This document shows, piece after piece, positions 35,901 to 62,997 of a stretch of 64,000 bases of DNA (position 1 is its first letter; every line of letters starts with the position of its first letter). The notes under the pieces were generated by a model. The model made no database searches, had not been told where the DNA came from, and was given only the letters and a program-made list of their open reading frames with translations. The DNA lies in the IMG/VR virus record IMGVR_UViG_3300048011_000525, positions 51,583 through 115,582 of that record; one strand, written 5' to 3'. The translations under genes and the position numbers were made by a program. Origin of the DNA: a virus.

Positions 35901-38900
35901 CATCGCCTATAATTGATTTTAGATGTGTATATGTTGCAAGTGTTTCTTCTTTCTTGCCTGTACCGTATACTGGATTACCGTCTACAAAATAACTTCTAGC
36001 TGCAACAGTAGTTTGGAAGTTGCCGCCGTAAGTTAAATCATAACGTAGCGCATTTAAGATGTAACGTGTATCTCTTTCACAGTTTGCAGTATCAAATGTA
36101 AAGTCTGCTGCAAACGGTGCAATTACACCATCAACTTGTGCTTGAATCCATGCAGTTTGTTCTGCAACAATAAAGTCAATGTTTGCTTCAATTTGTGCAA
36201 TAGCATTTGCAAAGCCGCTGTCGCTTGCATTATTTGATCCACTTGTTGGTGTTACACCAACATCTGGAACTAACGCAACATCTTCAATGCCATTTTCTAA
36301 GATATCAAGAGTTTTAACAATTGACATATCTAAACGCTGTGTTGATTCAGTTGCTCCGCCATATCCATTTAAATATCTTTGTGAAGCTGTATTACCGCTA
36401 GTAGCATCAATAGTAATGTTTTGAATTACTTGCTCTGATACGTCTTTAATTCTGTTCAGTGCGCTTGTAGTTTTATCTTTGTCGTTAGCAAGTAGTGGAA
36501 TTGCAGGTTGCGGTTGAATAACTGATGTACGCAATTCGTCACCAACAATAGCAGTATATTCTGGAATAATAATTGGAAGTATTTCGTTATATGTACCAGT
36601 TTTAATGAATATTGTTGTGTTTGGTAATTGCGGAAGTGCAATAGCCGTATTTGATTCTGCTTCTAATCCAACAGTTACAATATCAATTAATGTACCTGCT
36701 TTTGCCTTACCGCTATCTTCTGCAACCAAGGTTAAATCAATAAATTGTGCTGCACGTTCTTCAATTGCAATTCCCATTAGCGACTGATAGCTAACTGGTT
36801 TTTCGTTGTTTAATACTTTTGCTACTAACGATTTTAACTGCTCGTATGCTTCGATAGTTTGTGTACGCTGATATCCAAACACATCGGTGATGTATTCATT
36901 CCCAGCTTCTGTATAGTATGACTTAGCAGCTTCAGTAGTTCTTAGTGTGCCGCCGCGGCCAATATCGTAGTACAATGCATCAATAATGTAGCCGGTGTCT
37001 CTTTCGCATTTTGCTGAATTATAAGAAAGTTTACCAGTCATAACGCCAGTTGCATCAGTTGGGATAAAGGAAATTCCGCCTTGTGTTTCTGAAATTCTAA
37101 ATGTAGTTGAGCTTATAATACTATCAACATAATAAGTTTGTCCTTCTACTACACCTCCAAATATGTCTACGCCGTCAAATTCAATTGGCATTCCGTCTTT
37201 TAAATTACTAGTGTCGTAAGTAGTAAACAAGCGCGATGCAGCCACTGTTTCGGTTACTATAACAGAATAAGTATAGTCTAACCAAGAAGTAATTTCTTTC
37301 TTAAAGAACTGTTTGTTGTTTTGTAAAATTTGTTTTGTTTGAGGATTTAAGTAGCCGTCACGTACTTGCTCTAGTGCATAACGTACACTTCTCCAAGGTT
37401 TGTCAATAGATAGACCTGAACGTGGAGCTGGCTCGTTTTCGCCTAGTGGTCCTACATAAACAACGTTATCAACTAGACCATAGTTTGCCCAGTCTGGCTT
37501 ACCATCTGTAGCACGTAAAATCTGACCGTCAACGCCGATTGGAAGTCTAGTTGGTCCTTGATTTCCGTAATACACCATGTCGCCTTCAGTAGTAAGAGCA
37601 AGTGCTTCACTACCAAGTGTTAATAGGTTCCAGTAATCTGCTTCTAAATCGTTATCTGGACGATTTGCATTTTCTGATGTATGGGTTGCTGTAGCAATAA
37701 ACGAACTTGCACCGTAAATAACAACATCGCCAACAACATAATCTGTAGCTGGTGTCCAAGTAGATGAATAACCTACATGTGAAACTGTATCAACTGCTCC
37801 TCCTGTTACACCTGTTACTGTTACAACAATGTCGTTAGCAGGAGTAGTACCGCCTACACTGTTACCGGCAACTAAAATAGTATCATCTTCTGCATATCCA
37901 GTACCAGCAAATCCAGTTGAAACATTTACTGTGTATACTGTTTTAGATTTAGTAACGTCAAATCGTACTCCAGAACCAGATCCTTCTACATTAGTACCTT
38001 GTACTTGTAGGAAGGTTTGTGTACTGTTAGTCCAGTTAATTCCTGAGTTTAGTTTACTCCAGTAAATATCATTTGGTGGAGTAACGTCTGTACTATCAGC
38101 AACAGACACATAAGTTGTTCCGCCTAAGCGAACAACATCACCTACTTTATATGAGTCTAATGAGCTCCAGTCTCCTTGAAAGCTAAAGCCAGTTGTAAAT
38201 ACTTCCCAGTCATTTGGGCTGGCAGTTGGTTGTGCAGCAGTGTTATTAGTTTTAGCAACATAAACATAACCACCGTATGTTACAGTGTCGCCAATTTGAT
38301 AAACTGTTGAACTATTCCAGCTGTCTTCAAACTGGAAGCCTTCAATAAATACGTCCCAGTTTGTTTCGTCAGTTAAGAAATCATCTGAAGTGTGCGGAGC
38401 AACACAAATGAATACGTTGCCGCCAAATTTAACAACATCGTTAACTTTGTAACGTGTAGCAGTTTGCCATTCACCTAAGTAAACAAGTCCGTCACTAAAT
38501 AGTTCCCAGTTACCTTGGTTTGCTTCTAGGCCAAGTGTTGCTGTAGCAGCAGAAATGTGTGCAGTGGTACATAGATATACAAAGCCGCCGTAGCGTACTA
38601 GGTCGTTAATTTTAAAACGTGTATCAGTTGTCCAATCACCTTTCCAATCAAACGATGTAGCAAACGGAGTCCAATTATCAAGATTTTCTTCTAAACCTAA
38701 AAAGTCAGGTGCTTCAAATGTAGCCGACGTGTGTCCTGTTTCAGCAATATACACTAATGAACCGTATTTAACAACGTCACCTGGTGCGTATTCTACTTCG
38801 GGCTCCCAAAGTCCTCTCCATTTAGTACCATCTGAAACTACTTCCCATTTTGGAATTTCATTACTAAAATCAGTATTAAATGCTTCTGATGATGTATGGT

Positions 38901-39021
38901 TTTTAATACAAATATATGATTTACCACCAAAGCTCACTACATCATCTGCAACATATGTTGCGGCTGATGACCATTCGCCCTGCCATACAAACCTAATTCG
39001 TCCTAGTTTAAACTCTGCCAT
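26956..39021 (-). CDS. Giant virion structural/fibre protein (4021 aa)
   Basis: N-terminal W.G.W....Y...D.V.YGG repeats, CxRD helical repeats, beta-helix-like segment, propeller-like YG.G.FVA repeats, C-term GRVFYTSTDQDGNF.VG; TAAATA at 39049-54. Confidence 0.75.
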   Translation of the reverse strand: MAEFKLGRIRFVWQGEWSSAATYVADDVVSFGGKSYICIKNHTSSEAFNTDFSNEIPKWEVVSDGTKWRGLWEPEVEYAPGDVVKYGSLVYIAETGHTSATFEAPDFLGLEENLDNWTPFATSFDWKGDWTTDTRFKINDLVRYGGFVYLCTTAHISAATATLGLEANQGNWELFSDGLVYLGEWQTATRYKVNDVVKFGGNVFICVAPHTSDDFLTDETNWDVFIEGFQFEDSWNSSTVYQIGDTVTYGGYVYVAKTNNTAAQPTASPNDWEVFTTGFSFQGDWSSLDSYKVGDVVRLGGTTYVSVADSTDVTPPNDIYWSKLNSGINWTNSTQTFLQVQGTNVEGSGSGVRFDVTKSKTVYTVNVSTGFAGTGYAEDDTILVAGNSVGGTTPANDIVVTVTGVTGGAVDTVSHVGYSSTWTPATDYVVGDVVIYGASSFIATATHTSENANRPDNDLEADYWNLLTLGSEALALTTEGDMVYYGNQGPTRLPIGVDGQILRATDGKPDWANYGLVDNVVYVGPLGENEPAPRSGLSIDKPWRSVRYALEQVRDGYLNPQTKQILQNNKQFFKKEITSWLDYTYSVIVTETVAASRLFTTYDTSNLKDGMPIEFDGVDIFGGVVEGQTYYVDSIISSTTFRISETQGGISFIPTDATGVMTGKLSYNSAKCERDTGYIIDALYYDIGRGGTLRTTEAAKSYYTEAGNEYITDVFGYQRTQTIEAYEQLKSLVAKVLNNEKPVSYQSLMGIAIEERAAQFIDLTLVAEDSGKAKAGTLIDIVTVGLEAESNTAIALPQLPNTTIFIKTGTYNEILPIIIPEYTAIVGDELRTSVIQPQPAIPLLANDKDKTTSALNRIKDVSEQVIQNITIDATSGNTASQRYLNGYGGATESTQRLDMSIVKTLDILENGIEDVALVPDVGVTPTSGSNNASDSGFANAIAQIEANIDFIVAEQTAWIQAQVDGVIAPFAADFTFDTANCERDTRYILNALRYDLTYGGNFQTTVAARSYFVDGNPVYGTGKKEETLATYTHLKSIIGDVITETAITPTSGNGEAQDTAGSPGSAAAETFADDRIQEIFDTIDTDGTLPTPITPDTSWVSTSLVSITDDITTEKTTLQNSVIDFINTNYGKFVYNSSSCRRDAGILQTGAAYDVALETNYNSIRNGLAYRRSYAGEKVLEEQITETLGAITEQKSLVAALMSDPTAITRSNTYWDEVLDIVENNTPNAITWSGGSGDVDKTTARTELQTNRATIITDVITWINTNYPNFTYDQTLCERDTGYIIDAVSYDVQYGGNSASVEAAKAYFNGYIEVLPGAQRERTAAAIEQIAVIAATYMSGATEEAEVATLVQIISDVVNAGDTIALPTTVYPVITWVTAAIQTDAEATLDDTTVVPDLLQYITNNYTGFVYNHTKCSRDTGYIIDGLVYDMLFDSKFNGTKSGMAYRRAISSAEVVIDEQLEATLGAVDHLRREIRDITSGTDKLVSNSTTIKDIVVNNNVPGSYTITDPTGYDTGFFNARRLVVANKQFILDEAAAYLNTNHNAVWTALTLDEQNTWLDGIDELVDALRYDLTYRGNIESVVIARANYVDGVLVHPSNQKTARVDLATHLATIIDDIATGVSITPSAGNITSQDTAGTVGSAGAAAFAVDRLTEIKDTVDTGVLPAIINPSIAWVDTGLQEFKAVVDARRSLIQAGAIDYINKVHPALDYDETKCARDVGYMIDAIAYDVIFDSNFRSITAGKSYQRGITSTELVLANQLGATVDTIDYINESLTELTIGVDTTIGQANAANEAFKLVKDMTTVIQNGLNSVPPIKLPTPTGYNTDALIDTAYATTTNTTGDSSTYGNAADQLLANRDFIADELQQWLVDPANGYDDIWGGLSPNAQERCIRDAQFIVDAIRYDLTYGGNTQTNVAGAAYFSNFVLTIQNNELQATLASYARLREIIGEIVAETSVTTSPGVTETQDTSGTVGNAASIEFAQERVDDITYWLNNSTFETQTEVATEWQLTELTTAYERIKDRKDEIVDDVVFWVEKYHQDLEYNQATCRRDAGLIVDALARDIITGSNFATIKAGMAYYRAVPSALKTLRFEQSATVGAMNFLAEKVRRVALTAPNEAIKQLITDITSYIDGGSLPTPKWVDTNLEDTPDIVGASTIWENTAYIQEETVEYIAQTYPDLDYNEAKCRRDIKYVIDALRYDLTFGGESGMRRAVDYYYDATNNIQLGDNELEATLAAFDYIKFIAMGLAVNSVSSPGALQTKVEPTLRDESQLIGDSGTVTRVEDLMTLFYNSLGDGAFRKRIEVIEISSNVVTTAVNHGLTVGSELYFENGFSDVSAGTYYIKSVPAVNTFTVSAYFNGPELTLPESELGSFTEEWQFIPGPDYSNVTANLKQQFTNIQGSKSAIVEDVTDYIREKFPTLVYDQAKCERDVGLIIDAVGKDMLLDTNYLTTIAALSYYRGTQADVVIKEQRLVTVQAYRELKNYITTYVTGEGTTNAYGGRNDNTKAKVRINNLMDIVINVVKNGDKVTPEFQGTTTYFNDRETINAVDALKVNKDFLGEEATAWIKASYGGTVTDLGGSPGTLTFTSAHNLQLNDPIVFTGTVFGGIELATTYYVSNVVSATEIEVTDEVDGESINTFTGGTGTMTASYDFDETACKRDMSSYIDAMIYDLQYPGNYHSLRAARLYVNAVEGSEYSDMFYVRNATGARNMTFNGLRGNLSEKNEFGTRRPTGGAYVSLDPGFGPWDTEAWVTNKSCYVQNVSTFGTGCIGNKIDGSLHAGGNRSVVSNDFTQILSDGIGVWCSGNNSLTELVSVFAYYNYAGYIADFGGRIRATNGNSSYGTFGVIAEGTDLGEEPIVADADNLSQNALVYSVSTDGEEEVLAMEYSNAGTGYTNVQYAISGSGFNAATVGDEFRDQAVVEARIIDVDDGTTVGGEDFVIAQNVAQGGDPVHITLAATDFALGDAYNGMRVQITAGTGVGQYGKVLNFNNGTKNCTVYKPSFDNLFVTATSSINNVITVDDTTTLYVDMPIYFSEDVGGLSRGDSPSDVYYVNNIVSGGQFTVSTEVGGVTEVLTNDTTSATIYAAGFDNIIPGKPSEASLDLTTGYTVEPAIVYAKPGFTSSSVSTADAIDFGPGIFADGRFIALEGGAGASTNYSLDGENWTTGGALPASANWSDVAYGGGQGATARAVVGGLGGTGAVLEAELGELNSIGLPGPTQIARVNVVAGGTGYTTPPTIVFTSTLGGGGATAVATVKDGAIQNIIITSTGAGYAQAPTVAAATDKLTEVIVETRGSGYLNTPTVTISGGGASTQAQVIANLENEGVIAIRLDVDVDDNPLFGEGYTTTPTVEIVDTEAKWVAVANGSTTNAYLPTIDEANTNWTAGDVFSQSHYVGIAYGAGTFVTVGSVGGVDAAQTSTNGSNWTPRTMTTPASGTFSAVRYGAGKFVAINTDGYTAVSSNGILWEAGGNMPSAIGDWTSLAWGNGRFVAISDAGEYAISYDFGANWYSEGTTLNNISATGWTRVAYGQGLFVAVCDGASSCAISSDGLIWNEGDLSGTASWSTPIFGNPNNVPTWVALTSDANTTANKIKTGARAHGRCYADDGTLIATTLLEPGSGYPVGDIVSFTSPHTIELDSTDNMYVGQPITFEGADLETAALNSEILYYVSDVTGSTIEVSLLSGGPSYNIESIVTQDMVGSTFQAGPLVTITDPSSTVDANINPRIRNGVLGQPTFTNRGSGYTSATSELGGDGSADLYQPSTFIAVRNLFELPEPGSNVEFANIPEKYYKLVTISNVIGQEGSYTATFQISPGLDVLNAPKDGTVITTTNKYSQVRLTGHDFLYIGTGNKAKTNYPFVDITSAYIEAQQLSSGGGRVFYTSTDQDGNFNVGGLFGVQQSTGTATLDADAFNLAGLQSLQINGLGLGIGSAIITQFSTDPFFTENSDNIVPTQRAIRSYITAQIGGGQSSLNVNTLTAGTVFIAGDEITTTSGGQLNIKAKMNFTGGVDGAPVALGYFLSR

Positions 39022-39056: not shown

Positions 39057-42000
39057 TTATTGTTGTCCGCCGCGTGTAGGATCGACAAGCGTCTTAAAGA
39101 AATATGCCATTGCTAATCCATCTCCGGCCCATCCACTGTTACCAAATGGTCCATCAAAATTAGTAAGTGTTGGCATTTTAACTTGCCATCCTTCTCCGCC
39201 TTCTTGTACTGAAGATGTAATAATATCAGGTCCACCTACTTTAACAGTACCTGCTTGTAGCAAGCCTGTAAACGTATCTGCACCACCTTGTGACAATCTA
39301 CTTGCCAAATATGTTCTAATTGCTCTCTGTGTTGGAATCAAGTTGTTCGAGTTAGCAACGAACGTTCCGTCTGTTGAGAAAGCATTAATTGTTACCGGTG
39401 ATCCGCCAAGTGCAACACCGCCAATTGCTAGTTCTGTTAGCCCGTCTAGTCCAAATTCATCTGCACTCAATGTAACAATACCAGTTGCCTGTTCAACAGC
39501 AAACAAGTCACCAACTCTAAAGTTACCGTCTTGGTCTGTACTTGAATAGAACACACGCCCGTTGTTTGTTTCTTGAATTTCGTCTTGCGGTTCTAAGTTT
39601 GTATTTTCAGGTAAGTCGGGATAGTTAGACTGCTGTTCGTTACCAAAACCAATATTTAGGAAGTCATGGTTTGTTAGACGTACTTGGCTAAATTTACTAC
39701 GAATAGTAAATGGTGTATTGTGTGCCGGAGAGTCTGCTTGATCAACTTGCGGACTTAATTGAATTACTGCTTCTAAGTTTGGTATAGATGTGCCTCTTAG
39801 CGCAGTTGCAGTTGCAACACGGTATATTTCAGAATTACCTTCAAATTGTAAGTTGTCACCTGGTGCCGGAAAGCGTGTAATATCTTTTGCAATTATTCTT
39901 AGACCTTCTTGAAACTGATCTGAAAATCCGCTGCCTCGTAGTGCAATACCAGTAGATGTTGTGTTATACCCACTACCAAAATCTACAAAGCTAGGTGCAC
40001 CTAGTGTACCGTTGCCTATACGTAAATCTGTAACTGCTTCTTCTGAGTTGTTAGGATCAATAATTTTAATTGTTGGACCAAAGCTGTCATCAGTATAACC
40101 TGATCCAGGTTCAAACATATTAATATCTGTTAGTGACTGACTTGTTACGCTTGCAAATGCTTGTGCCCTAGCACCTGCTGAAATTTTATTTGCTATCTGT
40201 CCTGTGCTATCCATTGTTAAGAACCAGCCCTGTTTAGTGTCTGCATTGAACGTGAATCCAATTACACTATACAAAGACTGGTTAATTATAGGCTGTACAT
40301 CCCACTGTAAACCGTCAAAGGATGTGCAACAAATTCCAGACTCGTTGTTAATAACAACAAATACGCCTTGTCCGTATTCTAATACAGTTCCTTTTACATT
40401 TGTAGTTGACTCATACCAAGTTACACCGTCGAAACTGTATGCTGCTGTCCTGTCGTCTGTCGAGACTGCAACAAAACGTCCGTTACCGTACTTAATCGAG
40501 CGCCAGTTGTTAACTGTAGAATCTTGTGCAGTATCTAAGCTGCCCACTGTCCAGTTATCAAGCGCATCGCCAGGGCCGTTTGATAACACTTCGTGGCTTG
40601 ATCCGTTAATGATAACAAAAGTACCTTTACCGTATGCAATATCAACTTGATCGTTATCTGATACAATAGAGTTAAAAGATGTAATACTAGTCCAAGTTGC
40701 ACAATTGTCTGTAGAATAGTAAGCTTCTCCGGCGCCCCTTGTGATTGCTATAAATATGCCGTTGCCGTATTGTACTTTTTGATAAGTTCCTTGCGACAAT
40801 GTTGGCAAATCAACACTTAGCCAAGTTAATCCATTTGATACTGAATATAAACAATTTTTTCCAGTCTCTGAAAGTATAAACCAGCATCCGTTACCGTATG
40901 TTCCGTCTATCCAACCATTGTTTTCATTCGGATTGTCAACATCAATTGCTTGACCATATTGAGGAAGTGTAATTTTAGTATCCCATGCTGTATAGTCACT
41001 AGTTGTATACACTTCATTTCCATATCTTGGAATAACTATCGGAAAAAATCCATTTGAAATTATAGTTTGCGGAACTAAGTCTTCATTTACAAATCCTGTC
41101 ATCCCTTCTTGATAAAATGGAGGTGTGTCAAATTCTATTCTTGGTGAAACTTCATAAACTGATGTTGAGTCAAATGCACTAGTTGGTGGCGTCCCAGGAT
41201 TAATATGATCCCATCCTACTGCATTAATTTGCATTGACCCTGTTTCATCATCTAATGCAAATTCAACAACGCCGCCGTCAGTGTCTGTTAGTGTTAACTC
41301 AAAAGTTGAACCAAGATCGGTTGCTTGGAGTACATAGTAATTTGTACCTGATTGCACGCCGCCAAATATTTCAGTAAAGAAGGAAGCCTCCATTAAATCT
41401 CGTCCTGCTTCAAGTTCTTCTTTTCCGCCTGGCAAAGTACCTACAACTGAACCATTTTCAGTTGTAAGAATAACTTCGTCTAGTACTGTTCTTACAATTA
41501 CTTCACCTGTTGCTGTAGTTAGCGGTACTGCTGCGCCGCCTTCTGTAGCGGAAATTGTAAACGAGGTAGCATCGTTAATAACTTGAATAAAATAAACTGT
41601 ATCGTTTGCAATTTCGCCAAACGTAATACCAGTAAACATAATCGGACTGCCAACAGTAAATCCAGCAGTACTATCAACTGTAATTAGGTTTGTAATTGCT
41701 TCAGTAGCAGTCGAAGTTCTTGTAATTACATCACTTGCTATACTAAACTTAGTACCGTCAATGATGTCGTTAACATAATATCTTGTTTTTTCTTGTATGC
41801 CACCAAGTGTGCCTGACTTAAAAATAATTGCATCAAGTGGTGTTAGTACAGAAGTATCTGAAGTTAGTAAAGAATTGTCTGATGCACTAGTGTCTGTCAC
41901 TGTTATATTTCGAAGTGCTGTTGAAACTGAGAATTTATTATTTTCATAAACATCGTGAATGTAATAAGTATCGCCTAATTCAATTCCTCCAATACTTCTG

Positions 42001-45000
42001 CCAGTAAATTGAATTGGCAGTGTAACTTGCATATTATCAGTTGAACTTGCTTCTAAGAAACTAGTACCGTCTGGATAGTTTAGTGTAAACTGTTCAAACC
42101 CTTGGAATTCGTCAACTGCATCTTCAACGTTAACATTAATTAATGGCCATACAGCGCCACCAAATACTGTTGAAATTTGTATGCTAGTATCGTCAATTAC
42201 ATCGATAATATAATAATCAAAGTTAGTAATAACTCCACCGAAAACCGGGCCACTAAAGTTAATTTTTTGTCCTACACGAAGTCTTTCAGTACTTTCAACA
42301 ATCATGCGATTGTTTTGATCACCAAGAGTACCAACAACTGCTACTTGACTTTGTGAACTTGATAGAACATCAATATCGTAAACTGTTGGAGTAAATGTAA
42401 TAACTTGATTTTGATAAAGTCTATGAAAATCTGCTCCGGATCCTAATGTTAATACATTATCAACAGCCCTAGCTGCAACAACTTCTTGTTGCCCAAATGA
42501 TTCTTTGGTTATATTAGCAAATTTAGTTATTGGATCATAGCTAGAAATAATACCGTATTGTCCAGCGCCTTTACCGGACGATACGCTTAAACGCATACCT
42601 TCGTATTCTGCTGCTGTTGAAACTTCTGACTGCGCTAGTACTAGATATTCGGTGTTTCCGCCCTGTGCATTGTTTGATTGAAAGTTATAACCTAAGCCGC
42701 CTTTTCTAATAATATTACTTTCTAACAATCTAGTTTGATATATAGATCCAGAACGTAACTCATCTGCAACTATTCTTGCATCTTGACCAGCACCTTGTAC
42801 ATTTATATTTGCATAAGATGTAGGCATATCGGCAAATGTTTCTAAGAAGAAATTCATAGTGTCACCAATTTCAATCTGTGTTCCGTAAAAGTTAGTATAT
42901 CCTGTAATACCGTCGACGCCTCGAGGATACAATCTAAATTGTAAATTTGTATTTTGTGCAGTTTCGTCATATACTGTATACTGTATTCTCCACCAACCAT
43001 CTGATAGGAAATTAGCTTTGATATTAGTTGGAGTTGTTTCGCTGTCAGTTAACACTTGAGTCGATACATCCTGTGATTCAAAGTTAAATCTTACATAGGA
43101 AGTCCTAGTTTCAAACCCACTAAAAATATTATAAAAATCTACATAGTTTGTGTCACCTTGTTTTACGTGTACACTAACTGTATACGGTAATGCACTTCCA
43201 GTTGGCACTGTTCCTACACTATCAAATGACTGAATTGCTGTAATACTCAATTCTTGTACTGTAATTACAATATCATTTACGTCATCTCTGCCGCCAAAGT
43301 TTGTACCTGCAAGAGTAATCTGGTTACCAACAACGTAGCCGCTGCCACTGTTGTTTAATGTAACTTCATAAAACTCACTAGTTACTGTAACATCAAATGT
43401 TGCGTCTATACCAGAACCTGAAATGTTTGTACCTGCAATATTAGTATATGTTCTACCTTGCGGAGATATAGTAACATCTTGATAAACGTATGCGCTATCT
43501 GACAGTGAAGTGTTTGCTGTTATTTTCCAGGCAAATTCACCATCGTACGGTGTTGTGTTTGCTCTAACAATTGAAATATTACCGTCTGTTTGCCAATATT
43601 CGTCTGGTAAATTATTACTTAATAAGCTATTTGAATGTTTTAATAAATTAGTTGTAGAAGTAAAATAATCTTCGCCAGCGTGTTTATATTCTAATTTTAG
43701 TACTTCTGAGTTAGCACCTAGTGCAGATACTGGCAGTGCAATAGCATCGTTGTCTCTGTTGTTAACTGTGCCTGTTGCAGGTACTTCTGCAACGTCAAAT
43801 CCTTCAGCAACACAACCAAATGTACCATATGAACTGTTACCGTTTGTAGCACGAATACGTCCACCGTCTTCCGCAAAATATCCTGCATAGTTATAGTATG
43901 AAAACACAGAAACACACTCTGTTAATGAGTCGCCACCTGTACACCAAATTCCAATACCGTCTGATATAATTTGTGTAAAGTCATTTGAAACCATTGAGCG
44001 GTTGCCACCGTTATGTAGCGTACTATCAATTTTACATCCAGTACATCCTTTGCCAAAGTTAGTAACATTTTGGATATAAGGAGAACGTGCTGTAATCCAT
44101 ACACTAGTATCATCCGGTCCGGTGCCTGGATCAAAACCTACATATGCGCCGCCAGTTGGTCGTCTTGTTAAAAATTCGTTTTCTACAGACAATGTTCCTA
44201 ATAATCCTTTAAGTGTCATATTACGGACACCGCAGTCATTAGTTACTTGAATCATATCTCCAAGTGCTTCGCCGCCATATACATACATTGCTCCAATGTT
44301 AGTTGTTATTTCGACTTGATCACCGTCGGGTTCTTCTGACACACTAAATCTGTCAGATTCAATTGAACTACCAATTACATAATAAGTTTTACCAGGAATT
44401 ACATCGCCAATAACTGTACTAATTTCTTCAACTGGATTTAGTGATACAAACTGTACAGGAGTATTATGCTCCATATTAATTGTTGAACCAACAATGAATT
44501 GATTAATAAATCCAAACGTTCTTGTACATAATGTATTAACAGGTGCTGCTGGCTGTACAGTTGTGCCACGCAACTCGTCGCCGTTTAATGCTGTATTAGG
44601 TGGCATCTTAATAGGCAGGCGCTCATTATAAGTGCCTGATTTAATATTAATTGTTGAGTATGTGCCTTGGTTTTCTGGCGGGATGCTCTTAGGAGATCCG
44701 TCTAAGAATGGCTGTACTAATATTTTTTCTAATGCTCCTACAAAAGTAAGTGCATCGTCTTCGAGTACTAATCCATTATTAAAATACTGTGGTATTGGAT
44801 TTTGAACATTTTCTAACACTCGATAATCTTGTGCTGGTGCAGTGTTTGTAAGTGCTAATTCAATATTATTAAATAACTCTACAAAGAATTCTGCAAAAAA
44901 TTCTGCTTGTTCTGCAACAGTGTCATTTGTAAATCTATTTGTACTTTCGGTATTAAAGTATGATAGTGCTGCTCTAACAGTTTGTGCATTGCCGCCGCGT

Positions 45001-46919
45001 TTTAGATCGCGAATTACACCGTCAATAACAAGTTGTGCATCTCGAATTGTTTTATCATTATCAAAATTATAAGAACTATCAAACGGTTCGATGTTTTGAT
45101 TTTGTTGATATAAAAACCAATTGTATGTTTGTTCAACAATCCAATCTTTATTGTTTTCAAGTAATACTTTTGCATTTTGACGCAATGTGCCTAGTTTAAC
45201 TCTCTCACAAGCATATTTAATTGTTTTCCAAGCAGTATCCGGTGTAGTACCGTTAGTTGATAAATCTTCGCCATTTGTTGCAACATAATACACGTTCGGA
45301 GTAAAGTCAATGTCGCTCCAGGTTGGAAGTCCATTAACAACTTTAAGTACGTTACCGTTACTGCCAGTTTCTAATGGTGAATTGTTTTCTCCGTCGAAAA
45401 CAATTGTTTGTCCGAAATCAGTTAGACTATTTCTTTGATCGTGTTGTAAATATATTACCCAATATGTATTTTGTAAATCGTTATCTGGTCTAGATACTAA
45501 AGACGAAGTGTGTTCTAGTACACATTTATACGTTGCATTTTTCCAATAAGTTATATCATCGAGATTGTAAAGAGTGCTTTCACTCCATTTACCTTCCCAA
45601 TTAAATCCTGGAATTAATAGTTCCCAAATGCCTGCTTTTGCACCTGAAAAAGTTAATACTGCTTCGTCTGATATAGGTCCGTCTGGTGCTTCGTTAAGGA
45701 TAACTGTAGCGTACATAGACGCATTTGATGAGTCGTCGTCATAGCTTACTTCTCTAACTGTTTGTCCTCTACCAAAACCTTCGCCAGTAACAGTCATACC
45801 AACAGTAATTAAGTCTGATGCAACTGAGTCTGCTAAGTTAACTTGAATGCGTGTGCCAGCGGAGTTTTCTGCTTCGTAAGGTGCTTGTACTGTAAAATTG
45901 CCCGGATTTTCATTTATACTATCAACTAGTGCAACATATAAGTCGCCTCCGTGTCTAACTACATTACCAACTTTGTACTCGCTATTAGAAGACCATTGTC
46001 CTGAAATTTCATATGCTTCTGTAATTAATTCCCAAGCATCGGTTGAATCATCACCAAAAGTTGTACTTGGTGTGTTGCCAATATTGTTAATAATTTTAGA
46101 CTGGAATAAGTATCCGCCATATTGTACAACGTCACCTGGTTGATAAATTGCATTTAAATCATAAACTCCGTCAAAGTCTAAACCAGGAAGCCATTCTTCC
46201 CAATATGCTGATATAAAAGTTTCATAAAGTTCAGTTGAGTCAGCAAAGTCAACAAATTCTGCACTCGGAGCATGTCCCCAAATACATCTATATAGGCTTG
46301 GACCGTATTTTACAATATCATTTAGTTTATACCTTACTTGCGAACTATCTTGATTTGACGTTACATATTCGCCTTTCCAAGATACACCGTACTGCAACAG
46401 TTTCCAGTATTTCTCTGTACTATCTTCTACATCAGTATAATCTACTTCTAAACCTTCTAAATCTGTTGCTGCTGATACATGTGATACAATACATTCGTAA
46501 ACTGAGCCGCCGTAGTTTACAATATCACCTACACCATATGTAGTACTTGATGTCCATTCGCTTGCCCAAGTTTTAGACTCCGCATAAACGTCCCACTTGT
46601 CAATATCTAAATCAAGCACTGCTCCACTTAAATGCTGTTCGTTACATTTGTAAACAATACCACCAAAAATTACAATGTTATCTAGCGCATACTGAGTTAA
46701 TGGTTCCCATGGACCTTTCCAGGTCTGCCCAGTCATCATCAATTCCCACTTAGGTTCAGCTGCTCCTATGTCGTTGTAAAACTCATTTGATGTGTGCGGA
46801 ATCAAGCAAACATATGCTTTACCGTTAAACTGAACAATTTCATCTTTGTTGAAAAAGGTTTGGTCTCTCCATGGGCCTGCCCAACTAAAGCGTAATCTAC
46901 TAATTTTAAATTCTGACAT
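39057..46919 (-). CDS. Giant virion structural/fibre protein (2620 aa), paralog of the 4021-aa protein
   Basis: MSEFKISRLRF vs MAEFKLGRIRF; shared SNDFTQI.SDGIG.WC, GGRIRATNGNSSYGTFG, SQVRLT.HDFL.IG; TAAATA at 46946-51. Confidence 0.75.
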   Translation of the reverse strand: MSEFKISRLRFSWAGPWRDQTFFNKDEIVQFNGKAYVCLIPHTSNEFYNDIGAAEPKWELMMTGQTWKGPWEPLTQYALDNIVIFGGIVYKCNEQHLSGAVLDLDIDKWDVYAESKTWASEWTSSTTYGVGDIVNYGGSVYECIVSHVSAATDLEGLEVDYTDVEDSTEKYWKLLQYGVSWKGEYVTSNQDSSQVRYKLNDIVKYGPSLYRCIWGHAPSAEFVDFADSTELYETFISAYWEEWLPGLDFDGVYDLNAIYQPGDVVQYGGYLFQSKIINNIGNTPSTTFGDDSTDAWELITEAYEISGQWSSNSEYKVGNVVRHGGDLYVALVDSINENPGNFTVQAPYEAENSAGTRIQVNLADSVASDLITVGMTVTGEGFGRGQTVREVSYDDDSSNASMYATVILNEAPDGPISDEAVLTFSGAKAGIWELLIPGFNWEGKWSESTLYNLDDITYWKNATYKCVLEHTSSLVSRPDNDLQNTYWVIYLQHDQRNSLTDFGQTIVFDGENNSPLETGSNGNVLKVVNGLPTWSDIDFTPNVYYVATNGEDLSTNGTTPDTAWKTIKYACERVKLGTLRQNAKVLLENNKDWIVEQTYNWFLYQQNQNIEPFDSSYNFDNDKTIRDAQLVIDGVIRDLKRGGNAQTVRAALSYFNTESTNRFTNDTVAEQAEFFAEFFVELFNNIELALTNTAPAQDYRVLENVQNPIPQYFNNGLVLEDDALTFVGALEKILVQPFLDGSPKSIPPENQGTYSTINIKSGTYNERLPIKMPPNTALNGDELRGTTVQPAAPVNTLCTRTFGFINQFIVGSTINMEHNTPVQFVSLNPVEEISTVIGDVIPGKTYYVIGSSIESDRFSVSEEPDGDQVEITTNIGAMYVYGGEALGDMIQVTNDCGVRNMTLKGLLGTLSVENEFLTRRPTGGAYVGFDPGTGPDDTSVWITARSPYIQNVTNFGKGCTGCKIDSTLHNGGNRSMVSNDFTQIISDGIGIWCTGGDSLTECVSVFSYYNYAGYFAEDGGRIRATNGNSSYGTFGCVAEGFDVAEVPATGTVNNRDNDAIALPVSALGANSEVLKLEYKHAGEDYFTSTTNLLKHSNSLLSNNLPDEYWQTDGNISIVRANTTPYDGEFAWKITANTSLSDSAYVYQDVTISPQGRTYTNIAGTNISGSGIDATFDVTVTSEFYEVTLNNSGSGYVVGNQITLAGTNFGGRDDVNDIVITVQELSITAIQSFDSVGTVPTGSALPYTVSVHVKQGDTNYVDFYNIFSGFETRTSYVRFNFESQDVSTQVLTDSETTPTNIKANFLSDGWWRIQYTVYDETAQNTNLQFRLYPRGVDGITGYTNFYGTQIEIGDTMNFFLETFADMPTSYANINVQGAGQDARIVADELRSGSIYQTRLLESNIIRKGGLGYNFQSNNAQGGNTEYLVLAQSEVSTAAEYEGMRLSVSSGKGAGQYGIISSYDPITKFANITKESFGQQEVVAARAVDNVLTLGSGADFHRLYQNQVITFTPTVYDIDVLSSSQSQVAVVGTLGDQNNRMIVESTERLRVGQKINFSGPVFGGVITNFDYYIIDVIDDTSIQISTVFGGAVWPLINVNVEDAVDEFQGFEQFTLNYPDGTSFLEASSTDNMQVTLPIQFTGRSIGGIELGDTYYIHDVYENNKFSVSTALRNITVTDTSASDNSLLTSDTSVLTPLDAIIFKSGTLGGIQEKTRYYVNDIIDGTKFSIASDVITRTSTATEAITNLITVDSTAGFTVGSPIMFTGITFGEIANDTVYFIQVINDATSFTISATEGGAAVPLTTATGEVIVRTVLDEVILTTENGSVVGTLPGGKEELEAGRDLMEASFFTEIFGGVQSGTNYYVLQATDLGSTFELTLTDTDGGVVEFALDDETGSMQINAVGWDHINPGTPPTSAFDSTSVYEVSPRIEFDTPPFYQEGMTGFVNEDLVPQTIISNGFFPIVIPRYGNEVYTTSDYTAWDTKITLPQYGQAIDVDNPNENNGWIDGTYGNGCWFILSETGKNCLYSVSNGLTWLSVDLPTLSQGTYQKVQYGNGIFIAITRGAGEAYYSTDNCATWTSITSFNSIVSDNDQVDIAYGKGTFVIINGSSHEVLSNGPGDALDNWTVGSLDTAQDSTVNNWRSIKYGNGRFVAVSTDDRTAAYSFDGVTWYESTTNVKGTVLEYGQGVFVVINNESGICCTSFDGLQWDVQPIINQSLYSVIGFTFNADTKQGWFLTMDSTGQIANKISAGARAQAFASVTSQSLTDINMFEPGSGYTDDSFGPTIKIIDPNNSEEAVTDLRIGNGTLGAPSFVDFGSGYNTTSTGIALRGSGFSDQFQEGLRIIAKDITRFPAPGDNLQFEGNSEIYRVATATALRGTSIPNLEAVIQLSPQVDQADSPAHNTPFTIRSKFSQVRLTNHDFLNIGFGNEQQSNYPDLPENTNLEPQDEIQETNNGRVFYSSTDQDGNFRVGDLFAVEQATGIVTLSADEFGLDGLTELAIGGVALGGSPVTINAFSTDGTFVANSNNLIPTQRAIRTYLASRLSQGGADTFTGLLQAGTVKVGGPDIITSSVQEGGEGWQVKMPTLTNFDGPFGNSGWAGDGLAMAYFFKTLVDPTRGGQQ

Positions 46920-60833: not shown

Positions 60834-61238
60834 TTAGTCAGCTTCGAAATCGTCAGCACCTGTGAATGAATCATCAGTACCAGCTTCTTCCATTTCAACT
60901 GCGCCGTCAGCATTATCATCACTAAAGTTCCAAGCAATACTTGTGCCTGTATCTAGTGTAACTTTACGTCCTGCAATTTTAGTTACTTGACGTGCTGTGC
61001 CGCCATCGTCTTTAACTGTAATAGTCATATCGCCTACTGCTAGAGCACCTTGCGATACATCTGCTAATGTGCAATCTTCTGTGTTTGTGCCGTCTGTGCA
61101 ACGGAACTTTTTGCTTCCTAATTGCTTTACAATCCAACCGTTTGCTTCGGCTTGTCCTGTTGCACGGAAACGTACTTTAATTTCGTTACCGCCAACTGTT
61201 GGCTCTCCGAAAAATCTTTTGTTAATTGGTCTTCCCAT
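60834..61238 (-). CDS. Hypothetical, probably abundant virion protein
   Basis: MGRPINKRFFG..G.IVKQLGSKKF; own late box (61334-39), AGGAG SD and downstream hairpin. Confidence 0.6.
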   Translation of the reverse strand: MGRPINKRFFGEPTVGGNEIKVRFRATGQAEANGWIVKQLGSKKFRCTDGTNTEDCTLADVSQGALAVGDMTITVKDDGGTARQVTKIAGRKVTLDTGTSIAWNFSDDNADGAVEMEEAGTDDSFTGADDFEAD

Positions 61239-61344
61239 TTGTTTTCTCCTATAAAAAGTAGTCCTATGCCCGTTCTATGGGCTACGCTGTGGTGCAGCAT
61301 AAGTCCGCCTTGCGGCACACTATCTGACATATGTATTTATCAAA

Positions 61345-61375
61345 TAAGAAAAAAGCCCGCATAGTGGCGGGCTTT
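61345..61375 (-). terminator. Intrinsic terminator downstream of pqqA
   Basis: Minus strand AAAGCCCGC-cactat-GCGGGCTTT-TTTCTT. Confidence 0.85.
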
Positions 61376-61430
61376 GTTTACTCGCAATCTAATGTTTCTA
61401 TTAGCTTGCTCATATCTATTTTTGATTCTT

Positions 61431-61502
61431 CTACTTGTTCATTACATACATTGTTACTTCGAATCCGAATCTCATCTCTGTTGCTGTTGGTTTTGTCCAC
61501 AT
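61431..61502 (-). CDS. pqqA: Pyrroloquinoline quinone precursor peptide (23 aa), below the ORF-track cutoff
   Basis: Hand translation MWTKPTATEMRFGFEVTMYVMNK*; MW.KP..., GFEVTMY with the E-x-x-x-Y core; AGGAG SD 6 nt upstream. Confidence 0.93.
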   Translation of the reverse strand: MWTKPTATEMRFGFEVTMYVMNK

Positions 61503-61545
61503 AGTGTACTCCTAAAATTAAGTTAATAAAATTGTACTGCAATAC

Positions 61546-61561
61546 TATTTAAACATATTTA
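61546..61561 (-). promoter_or_regulatory. Tandem late boxes upstream of pqqA
   Basis: TAAATA at 61556-61 and 61546-51 on the minus strand; AT-rich context weakens the call. Confidence 0.55.
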
Positions 61562-61586
61562 GAGACAAAAATCATCCGTAAAATCA

Positions 61587-61682
61587 TTAAAGATATATAC
61601 GTTTTAATAAAATATCATTTATTTTTTTAATATGGTGCTGTTTGATTAATTGCTTGTAGCACCAAAGGGTATAGTTAGTCAT
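61587..61682 (-). CDS. 31-aa basic peptide downstream of the glutamine riboswitch
   Basis: MTNYTLWCYKQLIKQHHIKKINDILLKRIYL*; strong GAGGAG SD. Confidence 0.65.
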   Translation of the reverse strand: MTNYTLWCYKQLIKQHHIKKINDILLKRIYL

Positions 61683-61708
61683 ACACTTCTCCTCGTTAAA
61701 GTTAAAGT

Positions 61709-61751
61709 GCGTTCCTTCGCAATATGCTACTTCCGTCCCGTAGGATGAACG
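61709..61751 (-). ncRNA. Glutamine riboswitch (glnA RNA motif, glutamine-I class)
   Basis: Minus strand CGUUC-A-UCC(UACG)GGA-C-GGAAGUA-GCA(UAU)UGC-GAAG-GAACGC: P1 CGUUC/GAACG, P2, P3 and the GGAAGUA/GAAG junction of the glnA motif as recalled; TAAATA at 61758-63. Confidence 0.82.
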
Positions 61752-61766
61752 TAATATTATTTAGTC

Positions 61767-61794
61767 AAAAAAAGGGCGACCTAAGCCGCCCTTT
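61767..61794 (-). terminator. Intrinsic terminator of the major capsid gene
   Basis: Minus strand AAAGGGCGGC-ttag-GTCGCCCTTT-TTTT. Confidence 0.88.
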
Positions 61795-61818: not shown

Positions 61819-62997
61819 TTATGAGAACGTTACGTTACTCATAGTTACTGTACCTAGATAATCCGCTGCGTTACCTAAAGATGACGCAGTGTTGTTTAGC
61901 TCAACATAACCATAACGTGTCATGAAGCTAACAACTGGCTCAAAGCTATCTGGGTCTAGTACTACACCGCTGCTCATCAATGGGATGTATGGGCAGTAGA
62001 ATGCAGCAGCATCTGACTCTGAAGAACCTTTGTAACCAACTAGTACGTTGCTGTCGTCAGCACTGTATGTGTTTACATAGATTTTCATAGCATTGTTCAA
62101 TGTACCAACAAACTTAGTGTTTGTAGGTGCTTCAAACGAACCTTCAGTTGTACGTGCAAACGCTGAAGTAGTTGCTGATTGTAGAACAGTTAGTGCCTGT
62201 GGAGACACAACAGCCCAGTTACCAGCGCCACGACGTGTGCGTTGTGCAATAGTGTTTGCAACACGGTTGATTTGAACAGCTAGTGCAGCATGTTCATCAC
62301 CAACGAATGTAGCTGTACCACTAACACCTGCTTGGTTGTATGCTTCTTGATTTGAAGTTCCTGCTAGTGAGTTAAGTGATCCTAGGACCTCTTGATCAAT
62401 TTCAGCAGTAATTTCTTGTGCTAAAGCAGCCATAATTTCAGCTTCAACATCGATGCCATGCTGTGACTGTGCGTCTTGCGCAGCCTCAAATGTCCAACGA
62501 GCTGATAGCTTACGTGATTTAGCTTCAACAGTTTGCTTCAAGATTTGGATGCTTAGTTTGTTACCAGCATTACCTTCTAGTGAAGCAGTTGAATCTGCTT
62601 TACCAGTTCCAGCACCTGAGTACTGTTCTGCAATCTTGAATGGGCTTAGTGCCTCTTCACCAGATACAGTAGTTTGTGCTGCATCTGCTGAGTTTGTTAC
62701 AGCGTCCGCATAGCGAACACGTAGTGTGTGGATTTGGCCCACTGGACCTGTCATAGGTTGTACACCTACCAATTCGTTTGCAATAACGGTTGGCATTACA
62801 CGTCTAATGACTGGTAAAATAACACGATTAAGTGTTGCGACATTGCCTGCAGAAGTTGCTCCAGCTGTAGCCGACTCTGACAAATACTTACGAGTATTTT
62901 CAAGAGTACTTGCCATTACAGATTTTTTATTACCTGTTAAGCCTTCTAATAGAGCACCTTTAGTCTCCTGCCAGCGACTTTCTAGTAGTTCCGACAT
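61819..62997 (-). CDS. Major capsid protein (T4 gp23-like)
   Basis: RRVMPTVIANELVGVQPMTGPVGQI, VEAKSRKL.A.WT.E.AQD, EI.AEIDQE, TRRGAGN, GYKG..E.DA..FYCPYIPL, F.TRYG. Confidence 0.96.
   Translation of the reverse strand: MSELLESRWQETKGALLEGLTGNKKSVMASTLENTRKYLSESATAGATSAGNVATLNRVILPVIRRVMPTVIANELVGVQPMTGPVGQIHTLRVRYADAVTNSADAAQTTVSGEEALSPFKIAEQYSGAGTGKADSTASLEGNAGNKLSIQILKQTVEAKSRKLSARWTFEAAQDAQSQHGIDVEAEIMAALAQEITAEIDQEVLGSLNSLAGTSNQEAYNQAGVSGTATFVGDEHAALAVQINRVANTIAQRTRRGAGNWAVVSPQALTVLQSATTSAFARTTEGSFEAPTNTKFVGTLNNAMKIYVNTYSADDSNVLVGYKGSSESDAAAFYCPYIPLMSSGVVLDPDSFEPVVSFMTRYGYVELNNTASSLGNAADYLGTVTMSNVTFS

What the first reader, a model, noticed from the sequence alone, without database searches (positions are those of the whole stretch)
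61345..61794. Hidden cassette behind the capsid gene: glutamine riboswitch, micro-peptide and pqqA between two terminators
Seen: the apparently intergenic ~420 bp after the MCP terminator reads, on the minus strand, late box (61758-63), glnA-type aptamer (61709-51), SD, 31-aa ORF, two further late boxes, SD, pqqA, terminator. I see no terminator between the two ORFs, so they can share a transcript. Known: glnA-motif RNAs sense glutamine (nitrogen status), and PQQ is cut from Glu and Tyr of PqqA. Inference: a compact late-expressed module linking host nitrogen status with supply of a redox cofactor during virion assembly. Each element may have been reported separately in phages; I do not know of this combination.
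Basis: partly seen in the sequence, partly recalled or inferred. Interest (0 to 1): 0.93.

Follow-up and report, generated by a model that had tools for sequence, protein, structure and literature searches.

The report
Phage glutamine switch, micropeptide and pqqA
Just after its capsid gene, a giant phage of methanol-eating bacteria carries a real glutamine-sensing RNA switch driving a conserved 31-residue peptide, followed by a host-derived gene for the PQQ cofactor precursor. The pairing recurs in about ninety other phage contigs, and in many of them the two genes overlap.

Summary
The glutamine riboswitch (RF01739) scores 50.4 bits against a cut-off of 35. PqqA scores 40.7 against 21.1 in Pfam and 39.3 against 20 in NCBIfam. 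Two intrinsic terminators flank the cassette and none lies between the ORFs.

The contig is a fragment of a jumbo myophage whose PqqA matches Methylophilaceae. The 31-aa ORF belongs to a conserved, unnamed family of about 30 aa. It has an aromatic-x-x-aromatic-Cys N-terminus and a basic tail, and sits behind a third of the sampled phage glutamine riboswitches.

In this lineage the riboswitch unit and the pqqA unit are separable cassettes. pqqA has its own conserved promoter-like box, its own SD and a host-derived leader, and relatives carry either unit alone or both in reverse order. Here glutamine most likely gates the micropeptide, and pqqA is at most co-transcribed.

The link is still not chance. 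IMG/VR holds 72 contigs from two other phage types in which the riboswitch-led ORF overlaps pqqA, and in 9 it is fused to it in frame.

Phage pqqA and phage glutamine riboswitches are each published; I found no paper on the combination. This scan noted like cassettes on other DNA. I class it as a new variant of a known kind.

The parts
61819..62997 (-). Major capsid protein gene (392 aa, Gp23 type). It is the upstream neighbour of the cassette.
   Evidence: PF07068 at 336.9 bits. 65-69% aa identity to the capsid proteins of jumbo phages such as PA5oct, GAP32 and Vibrio 2.275.O.
61771..61794 (-). Intrinsic terminator after the capsid gene.
   Evidence: 10-bp stem with 6 GC pairs, followed by a T-run.
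61758..61764 (-). CTAAATA late-promoter-like box (P1), 4 nt upstream of the first aptamer position.
   Evidence: Sequence. CTAAATA occurs 6 times against 0.8 expected upstream of ORFs. The same heptamer lies 40 nt upstream of the tail sheath gene. The box sits at the same offset in L101, L212, L159 and L435.
61706..61753 (-). Type-1 glutamine riboswitch aptamer (glnA RNA, RF01739).
   Evidence: 50.4 bits against a gathering score of 35, E = 4.4e-8, model positions 1-53 of 53. P2 and P3 show compensatory changes across 33 related leaders.
61684..61709 (-). Expression-platform hairpin. Its 5' arm (61704-61709) abuts P1 and its 3' arm (61684-61689) ends 2 nt before the ATG. The SD (61689-61694) sits in the loop and at the stem edge.
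   Evidence: 94.4% of cells paired in 33 leaders. One pair switches U-A (16 sequences) to C-G (15 sequences). Slid controls pair at 32-54%. The hairpin is also in the MFE fold.
61587..61682 (-). 31-aa micro-ORF of the aromatic-Cys family: Met1, aromatic at position 4, aromatic at 7, Cys8, then a basic amphipathic tail.
   Evidence: ORF. 39 of 118 sampled riboswitch loci carry a member. Met1 and Cys8 are invariant in 32 distinct sequences. A profile search found 22 clusters of 29-72 aa, all unnamed. No Pfam or NCBIfam hit.
61503..61586 (-). Spacer that forms the upstream unit of the pqqA cassette. It holds CTAAATA (61556-61562), TTAAATA (61546-61552), roughly 45 nt of host-derived leader, and an SD (61509-61513).
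   Evidence: The unit is conserved in window, L212, L178, L182, L035, L101 and L435, with or without a riboswitch upstream. Only the proximal 30-45 nt match host pqqA leaders. No significant fold.
61431..61502 (-). pqqA: a 23-aa PQQ precursor peptide of Methylophilaceae type.
   Evidence: PF08042 at 40.7 bits and TIGR02107 at 39.3 bits. The peptide type is found in Methylophilaceae genomes, where some copies are identical; best nucleotide identity is 89%, and the peptide-identical copies reach 86%.
61378..61413 (-). 11-aa ORF ending in Asp-Cys-Glu, starting 17 nt after the pqqA stop. It is probably translated by re-initiation.
   Evidence: Homologues lie 5-11 nt after pqqA in L101, L178, L182, L035 and L435, with synonymous Arg and Leu codon swaps. 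It is absent after 128 host pqqA copies.
61352..61375 (-). Intrinsic terminator that closes the cassette.
   Evidence: 9-bp stem with 6 GC pairs, followed by a T-run.

Best explanation
The 450 bp form a post-capsid island of small late-expressed cassettes in a jumbo myophage that infects a Methylophilaceae methylotroph.

Cassette 1 is a phage-borne glutamine sensor. A CTAAATA late promoter would start the RNA essentially at the aptamer. The aptamer's 3' tail can instead pair with the bases between the SD and the AUG. By analogy with the gifB riboswitch, which turns expression on, glutamine binding would pull that tail into the aptamer fold and free initiation of a conserved 31-aa aromatic-Cys basic peptide. 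That peptide acts in trans on an unknown host target.

Cassette 2 is a host-derived pqqA placed behind a phage promoter-like box, with its own SD. An 11-aa ORF follows and is probably read by re-initiation, and a terminator closes the unit. PqqA is the consumed substrate of the host PqqBCDE enzymes. Phage copies would therefore keep PQQ, and with it methanol dehydrogenase and energy supply, going after host transcription fails.

Cassette 1 has no terminator, so its transcripts run into pqqA. Glutamine control nevertheless bears on the micropeptide here, and pqqA is mostly under its own control.

Shown: the identity of all the parts, the platform helix, the modular layout, the host family, and the recurrence of the pairing. 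Inferred: promoter activity, the direction of switching, the roles of the peptides, and the benefit of PQQ supply.
For: - Identity of the parts.
- Host: the peptide type returned 120 or more genome contigs, nearly all labelled Methylophilaceae. The two complete host genomes tested carry pqqC and pqqE. Host genomes hold 1-4 pqqA copies, mostly away from the pqqBCDE cluster. Published counts are 3-12 pqqA copies against one pqqBCDEFG cluster (PMC4109929).
- The phage fragment has no pqqC or pqqE.
- Five host genomes have no RF01739 hit, so the sensor is the phage's own.
- Platform helix with compensatory change.
- The micro-ORF is coding. The frame stays open for 28-38 codons in 32 distinct sequences, Cys8 is invariant, differences are commonest at the third codon position (318, against 230 and 171 at the first and second), and the DNA diverges while the residues are kept.
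- Modularity: the same pqqA upstream unit occurs with or without the riboswitch and in either order. Capsid relatives mostly lack both.
- Promoter boxes are enriched before virion genes.
- The pqqA leader is host-derived and the box region is phage-specific.
- Viral PqqA has already been proposed as an auxiliary gene of methylotroph phages (PMC7678222).
Against: - There are no transcript data. Promoter use, read-through and timing are all inferred.
- The conserved box before pqqA is TTAAATA, the heptamer variant with the weakest enrichment (3 against 1.3 expected). It may not be a promoter, in which case pqqA would depend on read-through from the riboswitch promoter.
- The riboswitch, micro-ORF and pqqA lie in that order, with nothing between them, in four different genomic contexts. 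This argues for more coupling than 'independent cassettes' implies.
- The contig is about 33% complete, so phage pqqB-E cannot be excluded.
- The target of the micropeptide is unknown.
Confidence: 0.62

Rival explanations
1. The cassette is one glutamine-gated operon in this window too. The promoter at 61758-61764 makes a single RNA. Translation of the micro-ORF, permitted by glutamine, stabilises that RNA or protects it from premature termination, so PqqA output follows nitrogen status. The boxes in the spacer are not promoters.
For: - No terminator or stable structure lies between the ORFs.
- The same order, with nothing intervening, occurs in 13 contigs of this type.
- In 72 contigs of two other phage types, the micro-ORF ends 11 or 31 nt inside pqqA or is fused to it in frame. 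That leaves no room for a separate promoter.
- pqqA lies within 400 nt in 11 of 39 aromatic-Cys loci, against 1 of 79 loci with other riboswitch-led ORFs (Fisher p = 1.6e-5).
Against: - An 84-nt spacer carries a strong SD of its own.
- The spacer unit is conserved as part of the pqqA cassette even where no riboswitch precedes it (L178, L182, L035).
- The reverse order, with a terminator between the units, occurs in 8 contigs.
- The platform helix acts only on the micro-ORF start.
- The association may partly reflect a shared host range.
Confidence: 0.25
2. The 31-aa ORF has no function as a peptide. It is a leader ORF that belongs to the riboswitch expression platform, and only the act of translating it matters.
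For: - It is very short and matches no known family.
- Its C-terminal half and its length vary. In the overlapping lineages its frame relative to pqqA changes freely: 11 nt overlap, 31 nt overlap, or in frame.
Against: - The N-terminal residues (two aromatics, Cys8, basic residues) are kept while the codons diverge.
- Arrest or leader peptides usually conserve residues counted from the stop codon, and that is not the pattern here.
- Many members, including the one in Melnitz, are followed by no tightly linked gene.
Confidence: 0.1
3. The phage PqqA is not a substrate supply. It is a decoy that ties up host PqqD/PqqE, or the gene is a neutral passenger picked up from the host.
For: No phage pqqB-E genes are seen, and no functional data exist.
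Against: - The peptide is identical to host copies over the leader and the Glu-x3-Tyr core, which is what a substrate needs.
- pqqA is kept in well over 120 viral contigs and in six or more cultured Methylophilaceae phages of different morphotypes. That argues against a neutral passenger.
Confidence: 0.03

Closest known systems
Type-1 glutamine riboswitch in the gifB (IF17) leader of Synechocystis (Klaehn et al. 2018, PMC6212724)
   Same: It belongs to the same Rfam family and has the same three-stem aptamer. It sits in a 5' leader directly before the SD and start of a small protein gene, and control is presumed to be translational.
   Different: This copy is carried by a phage of a betaproteobacterial methylotroph whose own genomes lack the riboswitch. 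The product is a roughly 30-aa aromatic-Cys peptide with no DUF4278/IF17 match. The direction of switching and the target were not tested.
Glutamine riboswitch of Methylophilales phage Melnitz (Buchholz et al. 2022, PMC9004378)
   Same: It has 86% nucleotide identity over the aptamer, SD and start codon. The host family is the same, and a micro-ORF of the same family follows.
   Different: The paper assigns the riboswitch to control of the tmRNA gene. In the record the tmRNA ends 8 nt before the aptamer, and an unannotated 32-aa ORF follows the aptamer. In Melnitz pqqA lies about 30 kb away, whereas here it is adjacent.
Viral PqqA reported in Lake Baikal methylotroph viruses (Coutinho et al. 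2020, PMC7678222)
   Same: It is a phage-encoded PqqA precursor proposed to boost PQQ-dependent methanol oxidation in Methylophilaceae hosts.
   Different: That report gives no riboswitch, micro-ORF or cassette structure. Here pqqA stands alone in a jumbo phage, with a trailing 11-aa ORF.
Cyanophage psbA and similar auxiliary genes that replace a fast-turnover host component
   Same: The logic is the same: the phage resupplies the one consumable part of a host energy pathway while the stable host enzymes carry on. This is inference.
   Different: The product is a 23-aa peptide substrate consumed once per cofactor molecule, not an enzyme subunit. No expression or fitness data exist.

Membership tests
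Glutamine riboswitch, type 1 (Rfam RF01739) | Covariance-model score at or above the curated gathering score, over the full model | tested here: met
   50.4 bits against 35, model positions 1-53 of 53.
Glutamine riboswitch, type 1 (Rfam RF01739) | P1/P2/P3 three-stem junction supported by covariation | tested here: met
   P1 is invariant. P2 and P3 each have 2 pairs with changes on both sides across 33 leaders. 94% of cells are paired, against 32-54% when slid.
Glutamine riboswitch, type 1 (Rfam RF01739) | Selective binding of L-glutamine, with a resulting change in expression | not testable with these tools
   Needs in-line probing or ITC, plus a reporter assay.
PqqA (PF08042 / TIGR02107) | Profile score above the curated cut-off | tested here: met
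   40.7 bits against 21.1, and 39.3 against 20.
PqqA (PF08042 / TIGR02107) | Glu-x-x-x-Tyr cross-link pair in a peptide of 20-30 aa | tested here: met
   23 aa with Glu15 and Tyr19. The peptide is identical to host copies in L315 and L346.
PqqA (PF08042 / TIGR02107) | Processing enzymes PqqB-E available | tested here: inconclusive
   None are found in the 115-kb phage fragment, which is 33% complete. pqqC and pqqE scored over their cut-offs in the 2 complete candidate host genomes tested, and four ORFs of the sizes and order expected for pqqBCDE sit at that locus. The host itself is inferred.
T4-type late promoter (TATAAATA class) | Conserved heptamer or octamer a short distance upstream of late (virion) genes | tested here: met
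   ATAAATA occurs 10 times against 0.9 expected and CTAAATA 6 against 0.8, before the sheath, tube, adaptor and virion genes.
T4-type late promoter (TATAAATA class) | Phage late sigma (gp55-like) and coactivator (gp33-like) present; transcription start mapped | tested here: inconclusive
   tblastn with Melnitz gp33 found nothing. gp55 was not searched. The contig is incomplete and no RNA data could be obtained.
Glutamine synthetase inactivating factors IF7/IF17 (DUF4278) | Sequence membership | tested here: not met
   The micro-ORF has no Pfam family at E up to 1. DUF4278-like YRG peptides follow other phage riboswitches, but not this one.
Single riboswitch-controlled operon (riboswitch, micro-ORF, pqqA) | No terminator and no promoter between the genes; order conserved in relatives | tested here: inconclusive
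   No terminator lies between the genes. A conserved promoter-like box and a separable pqqA unit are present. The order is reversed in 8 contigs but is tight, with overlapping ORFs, in 72 contigs of other lineages.

The most novel reading that the evidence does not exclude
Phages of methylotrophs carry their own glutamine sensor to tune an auxiliary metabolic gene. Where the riboswitch-led ORF overlaps pqqA or is fused to it, PqqA output, and so PQQ-dependent methanol oxidation, would be set by the cell's glutamine level. That would make it a virus-encoded carbon/nitrogen balance circuit. The aromatic-Cys micropeptide would then be a new small effector working in the same pathway as PqqA; the natural in-frame fusions are the hint for this. 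The trailing 11-aa ORF would be a third uncharacterised peptide of the system.
Probability: 0.25. Interest if true: 0.82.

Novelty: new variant of a known kind. Interest (0 to 1): 0.62.

Why it matters
Riboswitches carried by viruses are rare, and none has been tied experimentally to a viral auxiliary metabolic gene. This locus offers a compact, testable case. The aptamer is about 50 nt and belongs to a family whose ligand is known. It heads an unnamed peptide family that gene callers miss or place on the wrong strand, as in the published Melnitz genome.

The aptamer is repeatedly joined to pqqA, the one consumable part of PQQ synthesis in abundant freshwater and marine methylotrophs.

pqqA also appears in every cultured Methylophilaceae phage type found in the phage collection, mostly unannotated. 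PQQ supply therefore looks like a general pressure point in these infections, which bears on methanol turnover in lakes and coastal seas.

Tried and rejected
Degenerate DNA patterns and the representative-library profile search were used instead.
- The protein atlas gave no usable hit for the 31-aa peptide.
- Complex prediction with the micropeptide alignment and two copies of a candidate host GlnA returned 'no answer' (score 0.00). This is evidence neither for nor against the idea that the peptide is a glutamine synthetase inhibitor.
No RNA evidence could be obtained, and neither could context for the extra family members.
- The sigma-70 scan found no promoter in the cassette.
- tblastn with Melnitz gp33 found nothing in the contig.
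- The PqqA variant of the overlapping lineage was not found in 301 Methylophilaceae genomes, so the host of that lineage stays unknown.
- Literature searches for PA5oct late promoters and for the freshwater-2 motif returned nothing useful.
- One viral scan failed and was repeated. One pattern was rejected on syntax.
- Reading the ORF as a false positive was considered and rejected on the family evidence. Reading pqqA as host contamination was rejected because it sits between phage structural genes.

Full report
**What is there**

Read on the minus strand, the stretch after the capsid gene holds the following elements in order.
- The capsid gene (61819-62997) matches Pfam Gp23 at 337 bits.
- A terminator lies at 61794-61771.
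- A CTAAATA box lies at 61758-61764.
- A full-length Rfam glutamine riboswitch covers 61706-61753, at 50.4 bits against a gathering score of 35 and E = 4e-8.
- An SD and ATG open a 31-aa ORF at 61587-61682.
- An 84-nt AT-rich spacer follows, with CTAAATA at 61556-61562 and TTAAATA at 61546-61552.
- A second SD precedes pqqA at 61431-61502. PF08042 scores 40.7 bits against a cut-off of 21.1, and TIGR02107 scores 39.3 against 20.
- An 11-aa ORF lies at 61378-61413.
- A terminator at 61375-61352 closes the stretch.

No terminator-like site lies between the two ORFs. The 121-nt stretch spanning the spacer (61480-61600) folds no better than shuffled sequence (z = +1.14).

**Whose genome**

The window is part of a 115.6-kb linear IMG/VR contig that CheckV rates at about 33% complete. 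Its capsid protein is 65-69% identical to those of jumbo myophages such as PA5oct, GAP32 and Vibrio phage 2.275.O.

The pqqA DNA is 84-89% identical to unannotated spots in cultured Methylophilales phages MEP401, MEP402, MEP301 and Venkman, and about 73% identical over a longer stretch in the freshwater phage P19250A.

Nearly all are labelled Methylophilaceae: Methylotenera, Methylophilus, Methylopumilus and OM43.

Candidate hosts were checked directly.
- The two complete genomes tested carry pqqC and pqqE above cut-off; the incomplete OM43 assembly did not. In Ca. Methylopumilus universalis, four ORFs of the sizes and order expected for pqqBCDE sit at that locus.
- Host genomes hold 1-4 pqqA copies, mostly away from that cluster. 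This agrees with the published 3-12 pqqA copies per single pqqBCDEFG cluster in this family (PMC4109929).
- They have a type-I glutamine synthetase.
- They have no glutamine riboswitch.

The phage fragment has no pqqC or pqqE. The host is therefore most likely a Methylophilaceae methylotroph, and the riboswitch belongs to the phage.

**The boxes**

Within 70 nt upstream of ORFs of 60 aa or more in the contig, ATAAATA occurs 10 times against 0.9 expected and CTAAATA 6 times against 0.8. TTAAATA occurs only 3 times against 1.3.

The boxed genes include the tail sheath (CTAAATA), two tail tube genes, a head-tail adaptor, virion proteins and two giant ORFs. This fits the T4-class late promoter, which is established knowledge.

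The box before the aptamer lies at the same offset in L101, L212, L159 and L435. An RNA started a few bases after it would begin at P1. Promoter activity itself is inferred, and no RNA data could be obtained.

**The riboswitch controls the micro-ORF**

I aligned 33 distinct leaders that carry the same ORF family. P2 and P3 covary. A further helix joins the six bases just 3' of P1 (61704-61709) to the six bases that end 2 nt before the ATG (61684-61689).
- 94% of its cells are paired.
- One pair is split between U-A (16 sequences) and C-G (15 sequences).
- Slid controls pair at 32-54%.

The helix is also in the MFE fold. It encloses the SD. Its first two bases are the invariant C-A that also belongs to the Rfam aptamer consensus. 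A plausible switch is therefore competition for that tail.

The direction of switching is inferred from the gifB case, where glutamine turns expression on (PMC6212724).

**The micro-ORF is a gene family**

Every aptamer is followed 20-35 nt later by the SD and ATG of a small ORF.

Of 118 such ORFs, 39 belong to one family.
- Met1 and Cys8 are invariant in 32 distinct sequences.
- Positions 4 and 7 are aromatic and the tail is basic.
- Length is 28-38 aa.
- Differences are commonest at the third codon position (318, against 230 and 171 at the first and second), and the residues are kept while the DNA diverges.

A profile search of 1.8 billion representatives found 22 clusters, all 29-72 aa and all unnamed. 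Pfam, NCBIfam and the atlas gave nothing.

The Melnitz genome holds a member at L001:3071-3166. The record instead annotates an opposite-strand ORF there. Its tmRNA ends 8 nt before the aptamer. The published view that the riboswitch controls ssrA (PMC9004378) therefore looks mistaken: the riboswitch heads this ORF.

**Is pqqA coupled to it?**

Against coupling in this lineage:
- The 85 nt before pqqA are a conserved unit. It runs from the micro-ORF stop codon through the TTAAATA box to the SD. It occurs in window, L212, L101 and L435. It also occurs in L178, L182 and L035, where no riboswitch precedes it.
- Only the proximal 30-45 nt match host pqqA leaders, so the box region was added by the phage.
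- In 8 contigs the order is pqqA, terminator, box, riboswitch.
- Among the 54 closest capsid relatives with enough downstream sequence, 50 have neither element, 4 have the riboswitch only, and none has pqqA.

These are swappable accessory cassettes.

For coupling:
- The order riboswitch, micro-ORF, pqqA, with nothing between them, is found in 13 contigs of this type.
- It is also found in 72 contigs in which the micro-ORF ends 11 or 31 nt inside pqqA, or is fused to it in frame in 9 contigs.
- Those 72 belong to at least two other phage types. One has a 311-aa capsid protein of the Phage_capsid_2 family, followed by a tail fibre gene. The other is T4-like, with a 425-aa capsid protein. In both, the cassette again sits just after the capsid gene.
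- All the aptamers I rechecked pass Rfam at 50-59 bits.
- pqqA lies within 400 nt of 11 of 39 aromatic-Cys loci, against 1 of 79 loci with other riboswitch-led ORFs (p = 1.6e-5). Shared host range may contribute to this.

**Reading**

For this window the best account is two neighbouring late cassettes. The first is a glutamine-gated micropeptide. The second is a host-derived pqqA that resupplies the consumed substrate of host PQQ synthesis. Read-through links them, but pqqA is largely under its own control.

In other phages the same two parts have been welded into one translationally linked unit. Selection has therefore favoured expressing them together.

Phage PqqA is already published (PMC7678222), and so is a phage glutamine riboswitch (PMC9004378). 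I found no paper on the pairing, on the micropeptide family or on the 11-aa ORF.

Earlier notes of this scan describe like cassettes on other genomes and reached the 'separate control' view. I agree for this lineage and add the overlapping lineages, which the index did not hold.

**Limits**

- There is no expression, binding or PQQ assay.
- The host is inferred from peptide identity.
- The contig is incomplete.
- The complex prediction with host glutamine synthetase gave no verdict and is not used as evidence.

Noticed in passing
window 61236-61340 (-), with ORF 60834-61238 (-): A freshwater-2 RNA (RF02980, 66 bits) forms the leader, SD and start codon of the 134-aa ORF that follows the cassette. 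An ATAAATA box precedes it at 61334-61340. The motif recurs in L435 and L178, and a matching core lies within 1.2 kb after the capsid gene in 18 of 54 capsid relatives. This would place an orphan metagenomic motif in jumbo-phage late leaders.
   Followed up: partly
window 61378-61413 (-): An 11-aa ORF ending in Asp-Cys-Glu starts 17 nt after the pqqA stop. Homologues lie 5-11 nt after pqqA in L101, L178, L182, L035 and L435 and differ by synonymous Arg and Leu codon swaps, so the ORF looks coding. It is absent after 128 host pqqA copies. Its function is unknown.
   Followed up: partly
L001 (Melnitz, MZ577097) 2575-3166; L365 2601-2696: In the published Melnitz genome the tmRNA ends 8 nt before the riboswitch. 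An unannotated 32-aa ORF of the same family follows it, where the record annotates an opposite-strand gene. Melnitz also has an unannotated pqqA at 76137-76193 (+), under another opposite-strand 'hypothetical protein'.
   Followed up: yes
L002, L003, L004 and hits H3, H9, H10: pqqA is present but unannotated in cultured Methylophilaceae phages of several morphotypes: MEP401, MEP402, MEP301, Venkman and P19250A. More than 120 IMG/VR contigs carry an almost identical 23-aa PqqA.
   Followed up: partly
L371, L385, L388, L390, L402, L407, L408, L427, L432: In these contigs the riboswitch-led micro-ORF is fused in frame to PqqA, giving a single ORF of 50-51 aa. Sister contigs have overlaps of 11 or 31 nt in other frames. 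An SD-like AGGA or GGAG is always embedded just before the pqqA ATG.
   Followed up: partly
Host genomes G001-G005: All five Methylophilaceae genomes tested, including an OM43 single-cell assembly, encode a type-I glutamine synthetase above the NCBIfam cut-off. None has a glutamine riboswitch. The first point is at odds with a statement in the Melnitz paper that OM43 lacks glnA.
   Followed up: partly
L126-L244: Phage glutamine riboswitches head at least five other small-ORF families. These are YRG-repeat (DUF4278-like) peptides, a 64-aa family with an Asn-Gly-x-Gly-Thr-Ser-Gly motif, a 50-aa family ending in Pro-Arg-Leu-Gln, a 49-aa family ending in Asn-Pro-Phe-Tyr-Pro behind tandem aptamers, and several singletons.
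   Followed up: no
L159 7442-7646 (+): A manA RNA (RF01745, 58.6 bits) lies directly after the riboswitch-led ORF in a related post-capsid island. This is another structured RNA in the same hot spot.
   Followed up: no
window 26959-39021 (-) and 39060-46919 (-): Two giant ORFs of 4021 and 2620 aa are each preceded by an ATAAATA box 26-27 nt upstream. They were not analysed further.
   Followed up: no
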